This document shows positions 3,622 to 9,523 of a DNA stretch of 64,000 nt, one piece after another. The stretch lies in sequence record NC_048748.1; one strand, given 5' to 3'. This DNA is from Escherichia phage vB_EcoS_HdH2. Positions within the stretch are counted from its first letter, which is position 1. Each line of letters opens with the position of its first letter. A program made the position numbers and the translations under genes. The notes beneath the pieces are model-generated. The model made no database searches, was not told where the DNA came from, and saw nothing but the letters and a program-made list of their open reading frames with translations.

Positions 3622-4140
3622 TTAGAAATTTAACTTCATAGCAAGAAAATTTTTCAAGTTTTCGGTAGACATCTCATCCACATCTATAGGAGAAACAAAC
3701 CCATTTAATTGTCTAGCAAACTTTTCGCCAGCAGGATCATTATCCCCAACAGCTACCAATTTAAAAGGTAGTAATTTCAATTGCTTTAACAACGCTTTTC
3801 CGGGGGAAGAACCCAACATTGCTAGGGCAGGATAACCAGCGTTATGTAACGCAACTGCCTTAAATACAGATTCAGCAATCAATACTACTTTTTCATCTCC
3901 ATTGAGAGTTTCTAGTCCCCATACACACTGTGTAGTAGAATAAGTAAAATATTTAGCCTCAAAGGGACACTTACCATGACCTTTTGGAGCAGAAGGATTA
4001 TAAGTCTGATAGCCTCTCAACATCCCAGAGAAGTCATACAATGGGACTGTTAGCCAGCCTTCTGGGCTTAACCAGCAATGATATTTATCTGTATCAAACC
4101 CTCTAGATAAGAGATGTTCTGTTAGTTCATCAACAGTCAT
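3622..4140 (-). CDS. Toprim-domain protein (primase/topoisomerase-like fold)
   Basis: Acidic motif LIAESVFKAVAL ... VAVGDNDPAGEKFA typical of Toprim; start moved to the internal ATG (MTVDELTE) that sits behind RBS GAGAGG and the promoter at 4155-4205. Confidence 0.45.
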   Translation of the reverse strand: MTVDELTEHLLSRGFDTDKYHCWLSPEGWLTVPLYDFSGMLRGYQTYNPSAPKGHGKCPFEAKYFTYSTTQCVWGLETLNGDEKVVLIAESVFKAVALHNAGYPALAMLGSSPGKALLKQLKLLPFKLVAVGDNDPAGEKFARQLNGFVSPIDVDEMSTENLKNFLAMKLNF

Positions 4141-4313
4141 ATTAGATTCCTCTCTCAAATTTATAAATATATTATACAGAGAATTTAGCATTCAAGCAAT
4201 TGAATTTTTTAACTTTTTAGAGGAAAATCATAGGATGCTTAAGGGTAGCAGATAAGTGGTGAGTACCGAAATTTGTGACCCCACTAAAAATCTGGGGGCA
4301 ATTTTTAAAGACC

Positions 4314-4345: not shown

Positions 4346-4406
4346 TATGTTATGGATGAGTGATCAAAGAGACACACATTTTCTATATACTAGGAGGTGT
4401 CAAAAA

Positions 4407-5396
4407 ATGACAGAAGAAGTAGCTAAGAGTCCTGAAACCGTCGCTAGCGTAGCAGCAGAACTGCATCGTCACGAGGAATCAGATAAGAAAAAGTGGGAGA
4501 AAGTCAAAGCCTACGAAGAAGAACATCGTGAACACGATGATAAAGATGAAGAAGATGACGATGATGAACATTGTCATAAATATGGAAAACATAAAATGCA
4601 AGAACCAGTAAACGTATTTACTAACGGCTTCCCTGGCATGGGTGCATTCCCAGCTAACGCAAGTGCTTTCGGTGGAGAAGGTATGGGCCTATTCGGAGCT
4701 ATCCTAATCGGTGCTCTATTAACAGGCGGATTTGGTGGTTTCGGTGGATTCGGTGGACGTGGTGTAGTTAGTGATGGTACCGCAGTTGATGCAGTACTTC
4801 AGAACCAAGATACCGCTAGTATTCTAGCAGCTATTAACACTACTCGTACAGAAGCTAATCAGGGTACTGGAGCTGTTTTAAGCGCAGTTAACAATGGTTT
4901 TAGCCAGACATCCCAAAACCAGAGCCGTGATACTCAGTCTGTACTAACTACGATCTATGGTACAGGTGCTAATCTGTCTAATCAGATCTGCCAGGAAACT
5001 CGCAACGTTATTCAGGGTCAGTTCGATCTTTCTCGCCAGATTGATCAATCTTTCGCAGCTAACCAGATAGCTCGTGCACAAGATAAGTTTGATTCTGCAC
5101 AGATCGCTTTCCAGCAGACTTTACAAACTAATAACCAGTTTGCCGCTGTTCAGGCTCAGATGTGTGCTAACCAGAACTCTCTGGAACGTCAGATCGCTGA
5201 ATGTTGCTGTGAACTTCAGACTGCGATCGCTGGTGTAACTACTGCGCGTATCCAGGATGAGTTAGACGCATGTCGCCTACGTGAAGCAATCGCTGCGGGT
5301 AGCGGTGCTAACGGTCAGGTAATTAATCAAATCGCTTTAAGTCTTGGTGCTATCACTCAGACTCTGGCTGGTCTGCAGGCTAAACTGCCGGCTTAA
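4407..5396 (+). CDS. hypothetical membrane-anchored protein: acidic His-rich N-terminus, Gly-rich TM helix, Q/N-rich C-terminal domain with CCC motif
   Basis: ORF with AGGAGGTG RBS before ATG 4407; hydrophobic segment GLFGAILIGALLTGGFGGFGGFGG; codon usage resembles highly expressed genes; opposite strand to its neighbours. Confidence 0.55.
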   Translation: MTEEVAKSPETVASVAAELHRHEESDKKKWEKVKAYEEEHREHDDKDEEDDDDEHCHKYGKHKMQEPVNVFTNGFPGMGAFPANASAFGGEGMGLFGAILIGALLTGGFGGFGGFGGRGVVSDGTAVDAVLQNQDTASILAAINTTRTEANQGTGAVLSAVNNGFSQTSQNQSRDTQSVLTTIYGTGANLSNQICQETRNVIQGQFDLSRQIDQSFAANQIARAQDKFDSAQIAFQQTLQTNNQFAAVQAQMCANQNSLERQIAECCCELQTAIAGVTTARIQDELDACRLREAIAAGSGANGQVINQIALSLGAITQTLAGLQAKLPA

Positions 5397-5417
5397 TATT
5401 AAGGGGAGGAGCCCATT

Positions 5418-5837
5418 ATGAGTAAATATGGTTTTGTAAATAACGGACTTAATCAAAGTATGGGCTCCCAGCAGCCCATTCCGGGTCTGGATAATCCCTA
5501 CTTACAACAGTTGCAACAGCGTTTAGCAGAAGCGCAACAGATGCAGCAACAACTCCAGCAAAACCCTGGAAGTGTGAGTCCTATGCAAATGATGCAGCAA
5601 ATGAGTGGGCAGTCGCAAATGCCTCAACAAATGCAGCAACAGATGCCGCAGCAGCAGCAAGTTCAGCAACAAACCCATCAACCGCAGGTTTCTGCGGAAG
5701 GACAGGCAGTACTAGCCCTTTTCGAAGACTTCGCAAAGACAGAGGATGGGAAGCAGCTTGTATCACTTATGGGTAAGTTTAATAGCTTCTGCCAAAGCCA
5801 AATTGCAAAAGCTCAAAATAGCGGTGATAACTCCTAA
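5418..5837 (+). CDS. hypothetical glutamine-rich low-complexity protein (139 aa)
   Basis: ORF with GGGGAGGAG RBS; extremely Q-rich (QQMQQQLQQ, MPQQMQQQMPQQQQVQQQ). Confidence 0.5.
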   Translation: MSKYGFVNNGLNQSMGSQQPIPGLDNPYLQQLQQRLAEAQQMQQQLQQNPGSVSPMQMMQQMSGQSQMPQQMQQQMPQQQQVQQQTHQPQVSAEGQAVLALFEDFAKTEDGKQLVSLMGKFNSFCQSQIAKAQNSGDNS

Positions 5838-5846
5838 GGAGGAATT

Positions 5847-6041
5847 ATGTGTTGCAGAAAATCTGTTTCGTGCTGCCCAATGCCTGTAGCACGTTGTTGC
5901 TCTCCAGCAATGTTTACGCAAATACCGGCGTTCAATCCGTTTGCCTTTAAGCCTACTCTTATCCTGCCCCCTAGAGTAGATTTTCAGTCAAGATTGGCCT
6001 CCCGTATGGGTGGTTGCTGTAACAAGAGTATATGGTTCTAA
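5847..6041 (+). CDS. hypothetical Cys-rich small protein (64 aa) with four CC doublets
   Basis: ORF with AGGAGG RBS directly after the previous gene; CC at residues 2-3, 9-10, 17-18 and 57-58; followed by terminators. Confidence 0.4.
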   Translation: MCCRKSVSCCPMPVARCCSPAMFTQIPAFNPFAFKPTLILPPRVDFQSRLASRMGGCCNKSIWF

Positions 6042-6056
6042 AGAACCAAACAATAA

Positions 6057-6090
6057 AGCCCCTAGTCGAAAGACTTAGGGGCTTTTTCTT
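6057..6090 (+). terminator. rho-independent terminator ending the plus-strand cassette
   Basis: Hairpin AGCCCCTAGTC-GAAA-GACTTAGGGGCT followed by TTTTT. Confidence 0.65.
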
Positions 6091-6107
6091 TTGCCTTAAA
6101 ATACAGA

Positions 6108-6140
6108 AAAGCCCGCGCTCTCGGAGAAAACGCGGGCTTA
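6108..6140 (-). terminator. rho-independent terminator after the SPFH gene (hairpin shared with the plus-strand cassette end)
   Basis: Inverted repeat AAGCCCGCG...CGCGGGCTT; on the minus strand it is followed by TTTTCTGTATTTT. Confidence 0.55.
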
Positions 6141-6162
6141 GTTCGAAGATTACGTGTAACTA

Positions 6163-7110
6163 TTACTTGTTACGCATATCCATGATCATTTGACCATCAT
6201 AGCCAGTGCCAACTACAGTCTGAGGTACACCACCTTGATATTTCTGAGCACGAATCATCTCAACTTCCAGTTGTTTCCAACGAATCATCTCAGGAGTAAT
6301 GGTACGTTGTAGTGCGGCGTTAGCTTCAGCTTCTTTCTTAGCTGCGTACAGTTTAGCATCTGCGTCACGTTCATTAGCAATAGCTTGGTTATTGCGAGCT
6401 TCACGATCTGCTTCTGCTTGTTTAACTTTTTGCTGTGCTTCCTGTTCAACGCGGGCAAGTTCAGCTTTCGCAGCGTTAACTTGCTCTTCACGAACTTTGG
6501 TATTCTGTACCTGTTCCATGATTACCGGTGGCAAAGTAATATCCTGAAGAAACACCTGCTTAACTGTGTAACCATATGGGCGTGCATACTCTTCAACTTC
6601 CTGTTGAATTGCAGTTTGCAATTGAGCCTGAATTTTAGCATCAAACAAATCTTGTGCTTTAGGTACAGACTTACCAAACTCACGAATAGTAGACAGTAAT
6701 TTTTCAGTTACATATTTGTCTAACGCTTGATCCTGAGTACCTGCATTAATACGGTTAATCGGTGCCTTAGAACCATCAAACTGCAACATAACAGTCAGGT
6801 CAACAGTGGATTTAAACTTATCCTGACTAGGGACCTGAAGTTTATCTAATTTTAGAGCAATATCTTTAGTACTAAAAGTATCGAAAGAAGCAAAAGGATT
6901 TACAATATGAAAGCCGGGTAATACTGGGCTAGGGTCAACCTTACCCAGGAAGGTCTGGGTTTTAACAGTACCGTCTTGAACAACAGTGTAAGAGTTAAGA
7001 GCCAGAACTAAACCTACCAAACCAACTGCAGCCCCAATACCCCAACGTTTGATATTACGCATTAATTTTTGCTCATAAGTCAGTTCTTTAGTGTTTTTAG
7101 TAGCAAACAT
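6163..7110 (-). CDS. SPFH/band-7 family membrane protein (HflC/stomatin-like)
   Basis: N-terminal TM helix (IGAAVGLVGLVLAL), SPFH-like core (YTVVQDGTVKTQTFLGKV), charged Ala/Glu/Gln-rich coiled-coil tail; RBS AAAGGAAAT; directly downstream of tRNA-Arg. Confidence 0.6.
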   Translation of the reverse strand: MFATKNTKELTYEQKLMRNIKRWGIGAAVGLVGLVLALNSYTVVQDGTVKTQTFLGKVDPSPVLPGFHIVNPFASFDTFSTKDIALKLDKLQVPSQDKFKSTVDLTVMLQFDGSKAPINRINAGTQDQALDKYVTEKLLSTIREFGKSVPKAQDLFDAKIQAQLQTAIQQEVEEYARPYGYTVKQVFLQDITLPPVIMEQVQNTKVREEQVNAAKAELARVEQEAQQKVKQAEADREARNNQAIANERDADAKLYAAKKEAEANAALQRTITPEMIRWKQLEVEMIRAQKYQGGVPQTVVGTGYDGQMIMDMRNK

Positions 7111-7144
7111 ATATTTCCTTTATTTTAGTTACAGTTAATAAAAT

Positions 7145-7219
7145 TGGCCGAGGTGACAGGATTCGAACCTGCATAAAGGAATTTAGAAGACTCCTGCCTC
7201 TCCCTTAGACTACACCCCG
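7145..7219 (-). tRNA. tRNA-Arg (anticodon UCU)
   Basis: Acceptor CGGGGTG/CACCTCG, anticodon stem-loop GGAGT-CTTCTAA-ATTCC, T-arm GCAGG-TTCGAAT-CCTGT, G-CCA end. Confidence 0.7.
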
Positions 7220-7229
7220 TTTAAGTATT

Positions 7230-8010
7230 TTTAAGAACTCTCGTAAAAACTCTTAAAAATACAGACGATACCGGGAGAGTCATAAGTCTCACTCATTAAG
7301 TATTTCAAGACAAAATACGGTAACGTCTATTATTTTCCAGTTTAAGTCAGGGTGACTTAGTGGTTATGTCCTGCGGTATATTGAGGACTCGGTTAGGCTT
7401 GGGGTCATGACTTCCCACCTTTTGCTGCTACTCAACAGGAGTTATCGCGAATTACCTGTGCTATTGTGCACCATTAGTGACATCTCTCATGTCAGCATTT
7501 CCCACTTTGTGGATAGCTTGAAAAACTACTCCGATATGGAGAAAGAACTTCACTACCCTAGAATACCTTCTAAAGTTCTTCTTTAGCCTGGACATAGTTA
7601 AATCGTAATAAAACTATTCAGCAGACTGGTTGGTTAGTCTGGAACCAACTACCGCGTGGTTTAGGCAGTGCGCAACTAACCTCGGAAGCTTTTACGTTAA
7701 AAGCATCAGTTATCCAGTTCTTACCGACCGTAGGATTCGAACCTACATCTTCCACCAGTTACGGCTTGATAATACCAATTATACTAGGACGGCAGTGTTA
7801 CTACATAAGTGATTTCCACACCCCACTATTTATAAATTAGAGAAGAGTTTAGGGGAGAGGTTTCAGACGCCTCATTTTACACGTTCTAGCCACTAACCGG
7901 GATTGCCGCCCCCTGTGTACTAGTTTTACAACTAACCCACCGACTCTATTCAACGAATCTTAGTGCTCGACGCATCTTACATTAAGACAAGTTCAGCGTA
8001 ATCGGCTCGC
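7230..8010 (-). ncRNA. promoter-driven non-coding transcript region; candidate stable RNA(s), includes a tRNA-like 3' domain at about 7720-7795
   Basis: About 780 nt without a credible ORF, lying between the early promoter at 8020-8070 and tRNA-Arg; contains canonical T-arm GTAGG-TTCGAAT-CCTAC with acceptor-like GCCGTCC/GGTCGGT but no anticodon stem, plus several local hairpins. Confidence 0.3.
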
Positions 8011-8019
8011 TGTTCCCTA

Positions 8020-8070
8020 ATTTATGAATATATTATACAGAATTTAAAGGCATTTAGCAAATAAATTTTT
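8020..8070 (-). promoter_or_regulatory. T5-type early promoter firing into the 7230-8010 non-coding region
   Basis: Reverse complement has TTTGCTA -35, TGTATAATATAT extended -10 and CATAAATT box. Confidence 0.55.
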
Positions 8071-8512
8071 AATTAAATTCGCCAGCAATCTGAGCAGCAG
8101 TACCACCATCATAACGCCCAGAAAATTCTTCCTTAATCGCTTTCATCAGCATACCTTTTGTAATTCCAGGGTTTAGCTTAACTAATTCTGCAAAGTATTT
8201 ACGAATCTCAGTATCAGATAACTGAGGAGGCAGATACTCCTGCAACCACTTAGTTAGAATGTATTCATACTGAGCAGACTGCAAGCTATAACTATCAAGA
8301 TCTTGACCATGAAGTTTAGCTTTCATCTGGTTAATGCTTTTTAGTTGAGCTTTGAGATAAGACACAAATTGTTCAGAAGTGATGAAATCTTTATCAATAC
8401 GCTGAAGATCCCCGATTATGGTCTGATAGCTTTTAGCGACTTCTTTATCAGAACCATTAAACTTAGAATCCTGCAAAGCTCTACGCAAAACATCTAAAAT
8501 ATTCTCTTCCAT
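8069..8512 (-). CDS. GatB/YqeY-domain protein
   Basis: YqeY-like signature (YLPPQLSD, GRYDGGTAAQI); start overlaps the stop of the upstream small ORF (TAATG). Confidence 0.55.
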   Translation of the reverse strand: MEENILDVLRRALQDSKFNGSDKEVAKSYQTIIGDLQRIDKDFITSEQFVSYLKAQLKSINQMKAKLHGQDLDSYSLQSAQYEYILTKWLQEYLPPQLSDTEIRKYFAELVKLNPGITKGMLMKAIKEEFSGRYDGGTAAQIAGEFN

Positions 8513-8750: not shown

Positions 8751-9200
8751 TTAAGTTTTAGTGACAACAGGTTTATAGAATGTATGTCCCTTAATCTTAG
8801 TTGTTTTCTTAAATTTCTTTGTCCAGTAAGGTTTATCTTTACCACTATGGAAGTATAGTGCTCCATGTGTAGGATCTTGTGGTAAATCAACGTAGTATAT
8901 CACTCTAGCTAAATTCTTAGCAGTTTGCCAAGCCTCATCAGTTTTATCAACTTTTGGTCTCTTAGATACCCAAGAGAACTGGTTAGACTGATATACTACT
9001 TTACAGTAGGAATCTGGGAATTTACCGGAGTTTACACGGTTTTTAGTAACATGTGCAATCGCTGTCATTCCCTTTATGCCCTCACCACGACTTTCGAAAT
9101 AGATATTTTTAGCAATGCAATCTATTTCTTTTGCATCGTGCGATGCCTGACTACTAAAGCTGAAGGTAAGGGCAGCTACTAAAAGCAAAGCTGCCTTCAT
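8751..9200 (-). CDS. secreted cell-wall hydrolase, SleB/CwlJ-like (Hydrolase_2 family); candidate lysis or entry enzyme
   Basis: Signal-peptide-like N-terminus (MKAALLLVAALTFSFSSQA) and family motif FESRGE...AIAHVTKNR; start set at second ATG behind GGCAGGAG RBS. Confidence 0.5.
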   Translation of the reverse strand: MKAALLLVAALTFSFSSQASHDAKEIDCIAKNIYFESRGEGIKGMTAIAHVTKNRVNSGKFPDSYCKVVYQSNQFSWVSKRPKVDKTDEAWQTAKNLARVIYYVDLPQDPTHGALYFHSGKDKPYWTKKFKKTTKIKGHTFYKPVVTKT

Positions 9201-9205
9201 TCTTT

Positions 9206-9523
9206 TTACTCCTGCCAATCATATTCAACACGATTGGGATTTTCTTTATACCCTAAGTCAAGCAAATCATTACGCATACTTTGCTTAGCTACTGGGTTCG
9301 AGGTTACTAGTACCACTTTCTTTGGTCTCTGCCCAAATTCTAAGAGTAAACGAAGAATTTGATAACCTTCCATACCATCTACAGCCAAGTCATTATCCAT
9401 ATAAACGAAATGGCCTGTGGTATCAGTTTTATTCAGAAACTCTACAGCGGCTTCTGGGGTTCGAATGATAATGTCCATTCCGTGAAGATTACGCACATCA
9501 TCAATCAAAATATGAAAAGTCAT
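9206..9523 (-). CDS. hypothetical protein (105 aa), possibly a CheY-like receiver fold
   Basis: ORF behind the promoter at 9541-9595; acidic pocket-like motif DNDLAVDGMEGY; assignment weak. Confidence 0.4.
   Translation of the reverse strand: MTFHILIDDVRNLHGMDIIIRTPEAAVEFLNKTDTTGHFVYMDNDLAVDGMEGYQILRLLLEFGQRPKKVVLVTSNPVAKQSMRNDLLDLGYKENPNRVEYDWQE

What the first reader, a model, noticed from the sequence alone, without database searches (positions are those of the whole stretch)
6163..7110. SPFH/band-7 membrane protein encoded in a phage early operon
A 315-aa protein with N-terminal TM helix, SPFH-like core and long charged coiled coil is expressed directly downstream of tRNA-Arg. Host SPFH proteins such as HflK/HflC scaffold membrane proteases; a phage-encoded copy could modulate host membrane proteolysis or organise membrane microdomains during infection. 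It sits back-to-back with the plus-strand cassette and shares its terminator hairpin.
Basis: partly seen in the sequence, partly recalled or inferred. Interest (0 to 1): 0.45.

Follow-up and report, generated by a model that had tools for sequence, protein, structure and literature searches.

The report
Phage T5-type SPFH membrane scaffold gene
This is a real, well-conserved gene of T5-like phages (orthologue of T5 gene T5.080) that encodes a membrane-anchored SPFH/prohibitin-like scaffold protein; the identification is correct but already in public annotation, and what the protein does for the phage is still unknown.

Summary
ORF 6163-7110 (-) encodes a 315-aa protein with one N-terminal hydrophobic helix, a Pfam Band_7 core (E 2.5e-17), a 76-residue helix and a conserved C-terminal segment.

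The window is a T5-like phage and the gene is the orthologue of T5.080. It is transcribed after RNAX and tRNA-Arg. Identical proteins exist in GenBank, some already labelled SPFH/band 7.

New details:
- The common "lipoprotein" label is wrong here (no cysteine).
- Lipoprotein-anchored relatives imply that the domain faces the periplasm.
- It is not a captured host hflK/hflC/qmcA. It belongs to a stand-alone clade absent from E. coli but chromosomal in Morganella, Providencia and methylotrophs.
- It has no partner gene.
- It is under strong purifying selection (dN/dS 0.01-0.06), yet one natural isolate has it deleted.
- Two hairpins, not one, separate it from the plus-strand cassette. The proximal one carries a T5 nick-site consensus.

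Function (a periplasm-facing ring that insulates inner-membrane proteins, possibly FtsH) is inferred only.

The parts
7991..8065 (-). Promoter region equivalent to T5/phage 5 'promoter P16-17', which drives RNAX, tRNA-Arg and the SPFH ORF
   Evidence: Position mapped from the AJ604531 and NC_005859 annotation. A sigma-70-like match, TTGCTA-17-TATAAT (10 of 12), lies at 8060..8032.
7220..8004 (-). RNAX homologue, annotated in T5-like records as a 'stable RNA with unknown functions'; 5' part of the same transcription unit
   Evidence: Coordinates mapped from AJ604531 rnaX. Also annotated in DT57C and T5. No Rfam family matches it apart from an internal tRNA-like element.
7145..7219 (-). tRNA-Arg (anticodon UCU)
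   Evidence: ARAGORN; Rfam tRNA at 49.3 bits.
7114..7121 (-). Ribosome-binding site AAAGGAAA, 5 nt before the ATG
   Evidence: Read from the sequence. An RBS is annotated at the same place in AJ604531.
6163..7110 (-). SPFH/band-7 protein gene, 315 aa, orthologue of T5.080 / ORF trn 1.1
   Evidence: ORF; Pfam Band_7 E 2.5e-17; phrog_200 E 1.5e-85; 100% identical proteins in deposited phages; dN/dS 0.014-0.058.
6982..7044 (-). Codons for residues 23-43: the single hydrophobic N-terminal anchor, preceded by a K/R-rich 22-residue tail
   Evidence: Hydropathy and charge count; helix 12-39 in the model.
6535..6990 (-). Codons for residues 41-192: the SPFH alpha/beta core (SPFH1 + SPFH2)
   Evidence: Secondary structure of the model; Foldseek matches to stomatin SPFH domain crystal structures and to cage subunits; Pfam match.
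6301..6528 (-). Codons for residues 195-270: one 76-residue helix, equivalent to the CC1 wall helix of SPFH cages
   Evidence: Model; composition. Insertions in relatives are 11 or 22 residues long.
6166..6294 (-). Codons for residues 273-315: second helix (CC2, 273-291) and the conserved C-terminal G-G-V-P-x-T-V-x-G segment. In solved cages the equivalent region closes the cap.
   Evidence: Model; conservation; collinear hhalign alignment to the C-terminus of HflC.
6109..6139 (-). Proximal hairpin (14-bp stem, U-rich tail on the minus strand): terminator-like element for the SPFH unit. It contains the T5 major nick-site consensus Pu|GCGC at 6119|6118 (minus strand).
   Evidence: Terminator scan; fold z = -6.3; homology to the T5 misc_feature 'major DNA single-chain interruption'.
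6051..6094 (.). Distal hairpin (stem 6055-6085) with U-rich tracts on both strands: the bidirectional rho-independent terminator ('ter1') shared with the plus-strand cassette
   Evidence: Annotated in AJ604531 and NC_005859; folds on both strands.

Best explanation
The gene encodes the T5.080-family protein, a stand-alone SPFH (stomatin/prohibitin/flotillin/HflK-C) membrane scaffold.

Shown:
- It has the complete module order of cage-forming SPFH proteins: N-terminal anchor, SPFH core, long wall helix, second helix and a conserved C-terminal segment.
- It is transcribed from a host-RNA-polymerase promoter together with RNAX and tRNA-Arg.
- It is kept under strong purifying selection in T5-like and T4-like phages.

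Inferred:
- The N-terminal tail stays in the cytoplasm and the SPFH domain faces the periplasm, as in HflK/C, prohibitin and erlin.
- Copies assemble into a homo-oligomeric ring or dome on the outer face of the inner membrane early in infection, fencing off a patch of membrane.

Most likely role: to insulate or sequester inner-membrane proteins. My best single guess for the client (about 0.2) is the host FtsH-type quality-control protease, because the solved cages with this topology (HflK/C, prohibitin) work with FtsH-family proteases.

The function is accessory: useful in nature but dispensable for plaque formation.
For: - Fold and architecture:
  - Pfam Band_7 at 63.9 bits.
  - AlphaFold model with mean pLDDT 78.
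  - Full-length Foldseek matches: erlin1/2 3.8e-14, PHB1/2 9e-13, HflC 1.2e-11, stomatin 2.6e-11, QmcA 5e-10, flotillin 6e-8.
  - hhalign to E. coli HflC: probability 97.6% over 266 columns, from the TM helix to the C-terminus.
- Periplasmic orientation:
  - The N-flank has net charge +3 and the C-flank 0.
  - 12 family members, including the full-length Morganella phage homologue P0114, carry a signal peptide plus lipobox Cys exactly where the TM helix ends.
  - The three best-matching structural families are all exoplasm-facing.
- Wall-helix behaviour: insertions in the long helix are 11, 11, 11, 11 and 22 residues long.
- Transcription unit.
- Constraint: dN/dS is 0.014-0.058. T5-like and T4-like copies are about 75% identical (80-84% over the tblastn-aligned core) with saturated synonymous sites, pS 0.86.
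- Accessory nature: phage NG_S8 carries an in-frame deletion of residues ~17-275. Viable T5 deletion variants in the tRNA region are known (PMC12409363).
- FtsH link by analogy: HflK/C with FtsH, and prohibitin with the m-AAA protease (abstracts of PMC13220708 and PMC13376388).
Against: - No experiment on this family was found in the searchable literature.
- Oligomerisation was not modelled.
- My simple K/R positive-inside count failed to separate the E. coli controls of known topology, so orientation rests mainly on the lipoprotein variants.
- By sequence the best-scoring solved relative is QmcA, which faces the cytoplasm.
- The query has no match to the HflK or HflC NCBIfam models.
- There is no co-conserved protease or partner gene in any context.
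- The h-region is short (about 16 residues) and a VLA|L site could allow signal-peptidase cleavage, which would give a soluble periplasmic protein.
Confidence: 0.5

Rival explanations
1. Membrane stabiliser or lysis-timing factor. The periplasm-facing SPFH assembly would reinforce or repair the inner membrane after injection damage, or restrain holin rafts. Membrane potential would then be kept until programmed lysis. This is analogous to bacterial SPFH proteins that recruit PspA.
For: - Early expression from a host-type promoter.
- Predicted location on the periplasmic face.
- In Aeromonas phage Aes508 the gene lies three genes from rI, the lysis-inhibition gene.
- A Bacillus SPFH protein links PspA to the membrane (PMC8581546 abstract).
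- In T5-likes a secreted SleB-type wall hydrolase (8751-9218) lies in the same early region.
Against: - The tk-rI region of T4-like phages is a plastic gene-insertion zone (my own knowledge, not checked here), so the proximity may mean nothing.
- No holin, antiholin or Psp-like partner is co-conserved.
- There are no experimental data.
Confidence: 0.2
2. Superinfection exclusion or inter-phage competition. The early periplasmic ring would block DNA entry of later-arriving phages at the inner membrane, complementing T5 Llp, which blocks the FhuA receptor.
For: - It is early, envelope-located, dispensable in the laboratory but conserved in nature. That is the usual profile of exclusion genes.
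- In the Vi01-like phage PhiSH19 an SPFH-domain ORF lies next to an annotated superinfection exclusion protein (PMC3220722).
Against: - No known exclusion protein has an SPFH fold.
- Housekeeping chromosomal homologues in Morganella, Providencia and methylotrophs argue for a general membrane function, not a phage-specific blocking function.
- There is no match to the PADLOC defence models.
Confidence: 0.12
3. Cytoplasm-facing QmcA/stomatin-like scaffold (N-out, C-in) that organises a cytoplasmic-face microdomain, for example for replication or assembly complexes.
For: QmcA is the best-scoring solved relative by sequence: E 1.9e-6 for the single sequence and 3.9e-16 with the family profile.
Against: - The 22-residue N-tail has 6 K/R, whereas QmcA starts directly with its TM helix.
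- Lipoprotein-anchored family members must be exported.
- No NfeD partner gene is present, unlike qmcA-ybbJ.
- Profile scores for prohibitin and HflC are nearly as high.
Confidence: 0.1
4. Functionless passenger gene, or an annotation artefact.
For: It lies in a deletion-tolerant region, and one natural isolate has lost it.
Against: - dN/dS is 0.014-0.058.
- Amino-acid identity is about 75% overall (80-84% over the core) across phage families whose synonymous sites are saturated.
- It was found in 722 phage records.
Confidence: 0.03

Closest known systems
Phage T5 gene T5.080 (YP_006908; 'ORF trn 1.1' in phage 5 / BF23-type records) and PHROG phrog_200
   Same: Orthologue. It has the same length (315 aa) and the same position after RNAX and tRNA-Arg and before the bidirectional terminator. 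It is 95-100% identical to the proteins of many Tequintavirus/Epseptimavirus genomes. phrog_200 matches at E 1.5e-85.
   Different: Nothing substantive differs. The RefSeq/PHROG product name 'lipoprotein' does not fit this protein, which has no Cys.
RB43ORF139c, 44RRORF098c and Aeh1ORF064c, plus homologues in Pseudotevenvirus, Tulanevirus and other T4-like phages
   Same: Same family. tblastn identity over the aligned core is 80-84% to the enterobacterial T4-like copies and about 63% to Aeromonas phages. They were assigned to Pfam SPFH/Band 7 in 2006.
   Different: They occur in an unrelated phage family and a different genomic context, the tk-rI region. The N-terminal tail is shorter. Synonymous sites are saturated, so the split is old.
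E. coli HflK/HflC (FtsH-modulating periplasmic SPFH cage)
   Same: Same fold and module order, collinear from the TM helix to the C-terminus. The predicted periplasm-facing topology is the same.
   Different: - This is a single gene, not a K/C pair.
- Against the phage-family profile HflC scores only 19.8 bits and HflK 1.4.
- The query has no hit to TIGR01932 or TIGR01933.
- It lacks the roughly 45-residue insertion that HflC has in its SPFH core.
- Binding to FtsH is untested.
Prohibitin (PHB1/PHB2) and erlin1/2 cages
   Same: These are the best structural matches (E 4e-14 to 9e-13). My own knowledge, not checked here: they are anchored N-in with an exoplasmic SPFH domain, are of similar size, and are linked to membrane protein degradation. 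Some GenBank records name homologues 'prohibitin family protein'.
   Different: Sequence identity is only 15-20%. The profile E-value to PHB2 is 1e-14, no better than to QmcA. Those proteins form hetero-oligomers in eukaryotic organelles.
E. coli QmcA (YbbK)-YbbJ SPFH-NfeD complex
   Same: QmcA is the highest sequence score among solved structures. It is a single-gene SPFH homo-oligomer of similar length.
   Different: QmcA faces the cytoplasm and is encoded with an NfeD partner. The phage gene has no NfeD neighbour, and its charge pattern and lipoprotein relatives indicate the opposite orientation.

Membership tests
SPFH / Band 7 superfamily (Pfam PF01145) | Significant match to the Band_7 profile, above the gathering threshold | tested here: met
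   63.9 bits against a cut-off of 23.6, E 2.5e-17, residues 52-225.
SPFH / Band 7 superfamily (Pfam PF01145) | SPFH alpha/beta fold | tested here: met
   The AlphaFold model (pLDDT 78) matches stomatin SPFH-domain crystal structures and all the solved cage subunits with probability 1.0.
SPFH / Band 7 superfamily (Pfam PF01145) | Membrane anchor plus C-terminal helical (CC1/CC2) and terminal segments, collinear with the cage-forming members | tested here: met
   Hydrophobic segment at residues 23-43. Helices at 195-270 and 273-291 and a conserved C-terminus. Alignments of about 300 columns to erlin, PHB and HflK/C, and hhalign to HflC residues 8-321.
SPFH / Band 7 superfamily (Pfam PF01145) | Assembly into a large ring or cage oligomer | not testable with these tools
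   Only single-chain prediction was available. This needs a multimer prediction, or EM of the purified protein.
HflK/HflC FtsH modulators | Match to the curated HflK or HflC models (TIGR01933 / TIGR01932 / PRK11029) | tested here: not met
   The query has no NCBIfam hit at E <= 1 apart from noise. Only 20 of 50 family members give hits to the hflC model (best E 4e-11; not compared with the model's curated cut-off). HflC scores 19.8 bits and HflK 1.4 bits against the phage profile.
HflK/HflC FtsH modulators | Paired hflK-hflC genes encoding a hetero-oligomer | tested here: not met
   A single SPFH gene is present in the window and in every phage and cellular context examined.
HflK/HflC FtsH modulators | SPFH domain in the periplasm | tested here: inconclusive
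   The charge bias and the lipoprotein-anchored relatives point to the periplasm. However, the simple charge rule failed on the E. coli controls, and no experiment exists.
HflK/HflC FtsH modulators | Physical binding and regulation of FtsH | not testable with these tools
   Requires pull-down or cross-linking during infection.
SPFH-NfeD operon proteins (QmcA/YbbK, archaeal stomatin) | An adjacent NfeD-family partner gene | tested here: not met
   The flanking genes are tRNA-Arg/RNAX on one side and a terminator on the other. No NfeD gene occurs in the T5-like, T4-like, Vibrio phage or bacterial loci. Compare qmcA-ybbJ in E. coli.
Bacterial lipoprotein (the product name given by RefSeq and PHROG) | Signal peptide ending in a lipobox with an invariant Cys | tested here: not met
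   The protein contains no cysteine. A lipobox is present in only 12 of 249 relatives.
Known anti-phage defence or counter-defence proteins | Match to a PADLOC model | tested here: not met
   0 families at E <= 0.1.

The most novel reading that the evidence does not exclude
T5-like, T4-like and other virulent phages share an unrecognised strategy. They install their own periplasm-facing, prohibitin-like SPFH cage, of a subtype absent from E. coli and related enteric hosts. The cage captures a conserved host inner-membrane machine, most plausibly FtsH, and so re-programmes membrane proteostasis early in infection. The extreme amino-acid conservation across unrelated phage families would then reflect binding to a conserved host target.
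Probability: 0.15. Interest if true: 0.6.

Novelty: already known. Interest (0 to 1): 0.27.

Why it matters
The identification itself adds nothing new. Proteins identical to this one are in GenBank, several are already named 'SPFH domain / band 7 family protein', and the family was tied to Pfam SPFH in 2006.

What remains open is why at least two unrelated groups of virulent phages keep a stand-alone SPFH scaffold under very tight constraint when it can be lost in culture. No phage SPFH protein has a demonstrated function in the literature I could search.

The gene is easy to test. T5 is a tractable model, a natural deletion (NG_S8) exists, and cryo-EM structures of HflK/C, QmcA, prohibitin and erlin give clear structural expectations. 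A defined host target would link phage biology to the current structural work on SPFH cages.

A practical by-product is that the widely propagated 'lipoprotein' and 'putative membrane protease' product names for T5.080 orthologues should be replaced.

Tried and rejected
- Lipoprotein (the PHROG/RefSeq label): rejected. The protein has zero Cys.
- Recently captured host hflK, hflC, qmcA or yqiK: rejected. Profile scores are 1.4, 19.8, 33.9 and -30 bits, and there is no DNA match in 5,426 E. coli genomes.
- Member of a defence system: no PADLOC hit.
- Conserved partner gene (NfeD, protease or other): none in the T5-like, T4-like, Vibrio phage, Morganella, Providencia or Methylophagaceae loci.
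- Bacterial homologues as prophage cargo: rejected for the three loci scanned. Their neighbours are housekeeping genes (trpBA, accD, folC, mqo, greA and similar).
- Recent horizontal transfer between T5-like and T4-like phages, suggested by the 80-84% core identity: rejected. Nucleotide identity is 67.5% and pS is 0.86, i.e. saturated.
- Simple K/R positive-inside count as a topology test: abandoned as stand-alone evidence, because HflK and HflC (known to be periplasmic) were not called correctly.
- Assignment to one SPFH subfamily: not possible. QmcA, PHB2, PHB1 and HflC score 62, 57, 52 and 48 bits with the broad profile, and Foldseek ranks erlin, PHB and HflC first.
- Literature on T5.080 or on any tested phage SPFH function: nothing found.
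- A 'protease' function (from the old 'putative membrane protease' note): no protease domain. Band_7 is the only significant Pfam match.
Full report
**1. Observation**

The ORF listing finds the ORF exactly as reported: 6163..7110, minus strand, ATG start, 315 aa. ARAGORN and Rfam place tRNA-Arg(UCU) at 7145..7219 (-), 34 nt upstream. An AAAGGAAA ribosome-binding site lies 5 nt before the ATG.

The protein has one hydrophobic stretch, at about residues 23-43. A 22-residue tail with 6 K/R and 2 D/E precedes it, and an A/E/K/Q/R-rich segment spans residues 204-270.

Pfam Band_7 (PF01145) matches residues 52-225 with E 2.5e-17, at 63.9 bits against a cut-off of 23.6. The gene is real and under constraint: Nei-Gojobori dN/dS is 0.014 against phage 5 and 0.056 against DT57C.

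**2. Fold**

An AlphaFold2 model built from a 24-sequence alignment has mean pLDDT 78. It shows:
- helix 12-39;
- an alpha/beta core at 41-192;
- one continuous helix at 195-270;
- a second helix at 273-291;
- a short, low-confidence C-terminal beta segment.

Foldseek against the PDB gives full-length matches, all at probability 1.0:

| Structure | E-value |
|---|---|
| erlin1/2 | 3.8e-14 |
| PHB1/2 | 9e-13 |
| HflC/HflK | 1.2e-11 |
| stomatin | 2.6e-11 |
| QmcA | 5e-10 |
| flotillin | 6e-8 |
| major vault protein | 2e-6 |

hhalign of a 50-sequence family profile against E. coli HflC aligns 266 columns, from the TM helix to the C-terminus, at probability 97.6%.

**3. What genome and which gene**

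The 2.3-kb region is 98.6% identical to Escherichia phage PNJ1902 and matches 455 phage records, nearly all of them T5-like Demerecviridae. The protein is 100% identical to products of the Salmonella phages ABTNLsp4 and HMD-P5.

Curated records identify the gene as 'ORF trn 1.1' of phage 5 (AJ604531) and as T5.080 of T5. Those records annotate the transcription unit as: promoter P16-17, then RNAX (a stable RNA of unknown function), tRNA-Arg, the ORF, and a terminator.

In the window this maps to a promoter region at about 7991-8065, with a 10/12 sigma-70-like match at 8060..8032, and to RNAX at 7220-8004. That T5 tRNA-region genes belong to the early class is established knowledge that I did not test.

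Product names in GenBank vary: 'hypothetical', 'lipoprotein', 'putative membrane protein/protease' and 'SPFH domain / band 7 family protein'. The SPFH assignment of the T4-like homologues RB43ORF139c, 44RRORF098c and Aeh1ORF064c was published in 2006 (PMC1524935). The identification is therefore already known.

**4. Terminator claim**

The 121-nt gap contains two separate strong hairpins (fold z = -6.3 on the minus strand and -4.7 on the plus strand).

- The proximal hairpin, 6109-6139, has a 14-bp stem and is followed on the minus strand by UUUUCUGUAUUUU. On the plus strand its tail is not U-rich, so it serves only the SPFH unit.
- The distal hairpin, stem 6055-6085, is the one annotated as the 'efficient bidirectional rho-independent terminator' in T5 and as 'ter1' in phage 5.

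'Shares its terminator hairpin' is therefore only partly right.

The T5 record also marks a 'major DNA single-chain interruption' 44 nt after the T5.080 stop. The same Pu|GCGC consensus is present at window 6119|6118 (minus strand), inside the proximal hairpin.

**5. Not a lipoprotein, and probably periplasm-facing**

The protein has no cysteine, so the inherited 'lipoprotein' name cannot apply.

Among 249 full-length relatives, 12 have a signal peptide ending in a lipobox (LGSC, LGAC, IGAC, ITSC, FSGC, LTGC and similar). The Cys sits where the TM helix of the query ends. One of the 12 is the full-length Morganella phage homologue P0114.

This explains the origin of the label. It also implies that the SPFH domain is exported in those members. 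By homology, the query is most likely N-in/C-out, with its domain in the periplasm.

The net charge of the flanks (+3 on the N side, 0 on the C side) agrees. However, my crude K/R count did not classify HflK and HflC correctly, so I do not rely on it. Cleavage by signal peptidase at VLA|L cannot be excluded.

**6. Subfamily placement**

The query hits no HflK or HflC NCBIfam model. Scores of the four E. coli paralogues against the phage-family profile are:

| E. coli protein | Bits |
|---|---|
| QmcA | 33.9 |
| HflC | 19.8 |
| HflK | 1.4 |
| YqiK | -30 |

With a broader 50-sequence profile, QmcA, PHB2, PHB1 and HflC score 62, 57, 52 and 48 bits, and stomatin scores 29. The family is thus a separate clade, roughly equidistant from the QmcA/stomatin, prohibitin and HflC groups. 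It is not a captured host gene, and the gene has no DNA match in 5,426 complete E. coli genomes.

An exhaustive search of 1.84 billion representative proteins finds 910 relatives at E <= 1e-3 and 167 at E <= 1e-10.

**7. Distribution and context**

tblastn finds the protein in 722 phage records. Identity over the aligned core is 80-84% in T4-like Straboviridae of Klebsiella, Enterobacter, Cronobacter and Citrobacter, about 63% in Aeromonas T4-likes, and 33-35% in Aeh1 and a Vibrio phage. In T4-likes the gene sits in the tk-rI region, and in Vibrio phage K389 it lies among replication genes. No NfeD, protease or other partner is co-conserved.

T5-like and T4-like copies are 67.5% identical in DNA with pS 0.86, which is saturated. 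The shared sequence therefore reflects an old split under strong constraint, not recent transfer.

BFVD shows SPFH folds in many other phages and in giant viruses.

A scan of GTDB genomes finds chromosomal homologues in Providencia and Morganella (56-60% identity) and in Methylococcales, Methylophagaceae and Desulfocapsaceae MAGs (33-41%). In the three loci whose neighbours I scanned against Pfam, the neighbouring genes are housekeeping or metabolic, for example trpB-trpA-accD-folC-SPFH-mqo-...-greA. The relatives share the same short-tail, TM, 'NSYTxV' start. The phage gene thus derives from an ordinary stand-alone bacterial SPFH family that E. coli and its close relatives lack.

**8. Dispensability**

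Epseptimavirus NG_S8 carries an in-frame deletion that fuses residues ~1-16 to ~276-315. This removes the anchor, the SPFH core and the long helix. Viable T5 variants with large deletions in the tRNA region are in use (PMC12409363; T5st0). I did not establish whether those variants remove T5.080.

The gene is therefore accessory in culture, although it is strongly conserved in nature.

**9. Mechanism**

Shown:
- an SPFH fold with every module used by solved cage-forming relatives;
- transcription-unit placement behind a host-type promoter;
- strong purifying selection;
- no partner gene.

Inferred:
- periplasmic orientation;
- self-assembly into a ring or dome on the outer face of the inner membrane.

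A supporting detail is that the insertions in the long helix among relatives are 11, 11, 11, 11 and 22 residues long. Such lengths preserve the phase of a straight wall helix while changing its length.

The solved SPFH cages with this topology cooperate with FtsH-family proteases: HflK/C with FtsH, and prohibitin with the m-AAA protease (PMC13220708 and PMC13376388). The most economical guess is therefore that the phage ring sequesters or insulates FtsH or another inner-membrane client early in infection.

I put about 0.5 on the periplasm-facing scaffold model as a whole, and about 0.2 on FtsH specifically. Rivals are membrane stabilisation or lysis timing (0.2), superinfection exclusion (0.12), a cytoplasm-facing QmcA-like role (0.1) and no function (0.03).

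**10. Verdict**

Its interest is modest.

The added value here is:
- correction of the 'lipoprotein' and 'protease' labels;
- the orientation argument;
- placement of the family as a distinct stand-alone clade absent from the host;
- the strength of the constraint;
- the natural knockout;
- the two-hairpin and nick-site anatomy downstream of the gene.

Noticed in passing
window 6109-6139 (nick at 6119|6118, minus strand): The terminator-like hairpin immediately after the SPFH stop contains the T5 'major DNA single-chain interruption' consensus Pu|GCGC (window CTCCGAGA|GCGCGGGC, T5 CCTGGAGA|GCGCAGG). It sits at the same 44-nt offset from the stop codon as the feature annotated in NC_005859. One of the site-specific T5 nicks therefore appears to lie inside a conserved hairpin.
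   Followed up: yes
window 7722-7793 (-): A tRNA-like element scores 35.5 bits against Rfam RF00005 (gathering score 29), with good acceptor, D and T arms. ARAGORN did not call it. It lies inside the region homologous to RNAX.
   Followed up: partly
window 7220-8004 (-): Homologue of 'RNAX', annotated in T5, phage 5 and DT57C as a 636-785-nt stable RNA of unknown function. It is co-transcribed with tRNA-Arg and the SPFH gene. No Rfam family covers it apart from the internal tRNA-like element.
   Followed up: partly
window 4347-6041 (+): Convergent three-ORF cassette (T5.077-079 homologues) with no Pfam family. The 349-aa protein (phrog_8119) has a Gly-rich hydrophobic stretch, Q/N-rich repeats and a CCC motif. 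The 139-aa protein (phrog_7894) is Q-rich. The 64-aa ORF has 9 Cys and matches no family. The whole cassette is absent from phage DT57C.
   Followed up: partly
window 9206-9523 (-): A 105-aa protein (T5.084 homologue) matches Pfam cREC_REC, the 'cyclic-phosphate processing receiver domain' (E 1.1e-14). This is an unusual domain for a phage early gene.
   Followed up: no
window 8751-9218 (-): A 155-aa SleB-type cell-wall hydrolase (Pfam Hydrolase_2, E 2.4e-25) with an apparent N-terminal signal peptide, lying in the early region (T5.083 homologue, labelled 'endolysin').
   Followed up: no
window 8069-8512 (-) and 3622-4191 (-): A YqeY-like protein (PHROG label 'tRNA amidotransferase'; T5.081 homologue) and a small Toprim/primase-like protein (T5.076 homologue) flank the locus.
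   Followed up: no
alignment A1, columns about 262-296 (query residues about 245-250): Length variation in the long helix among family members comes only in blocks of 11 or 22 residues, which are repeats of an A-x-x-Y-A-x-K-x-x-A-E-like unit. This suggests a hendecad-phased wall helix of adjustable height.
   Followed up: partly
L072 (phage NG_S8) 3250-3629: A natural in-frame deletion leaves a 55-aa remnant of the SPFH gene (residues ~1-16 fused to ~276-315). An unrelated 66-aa ORF is inserted between tRNA-Arg and the remnant.
   Followed up: yes
L012-L024 (Providencia and Morganella genome contigs), about 6001-6930: Across the Morganella and Providencia genomes hit in the scan, chromosomal genes are 56-60% identical to the phage protein. 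In the two loci whose neighbours were scanned against Pfam (L023 Morganella, L015 Providencia), the context is non-prophage. Whether phages acquired the gene from Morganellaceae-like hosts, or the reverse, was not resolved.
   Followed up: partly
L011 (contig assigned to Flagellimonas marina, 178,077 bp): This contig carries a 76%-identical copy and has the size of a T4-like (Pseudotevenvirus-type) phage genome. It is probably phage DNA in a bacterial assembly, not a Flagellimonas gene.
   Followed up: no
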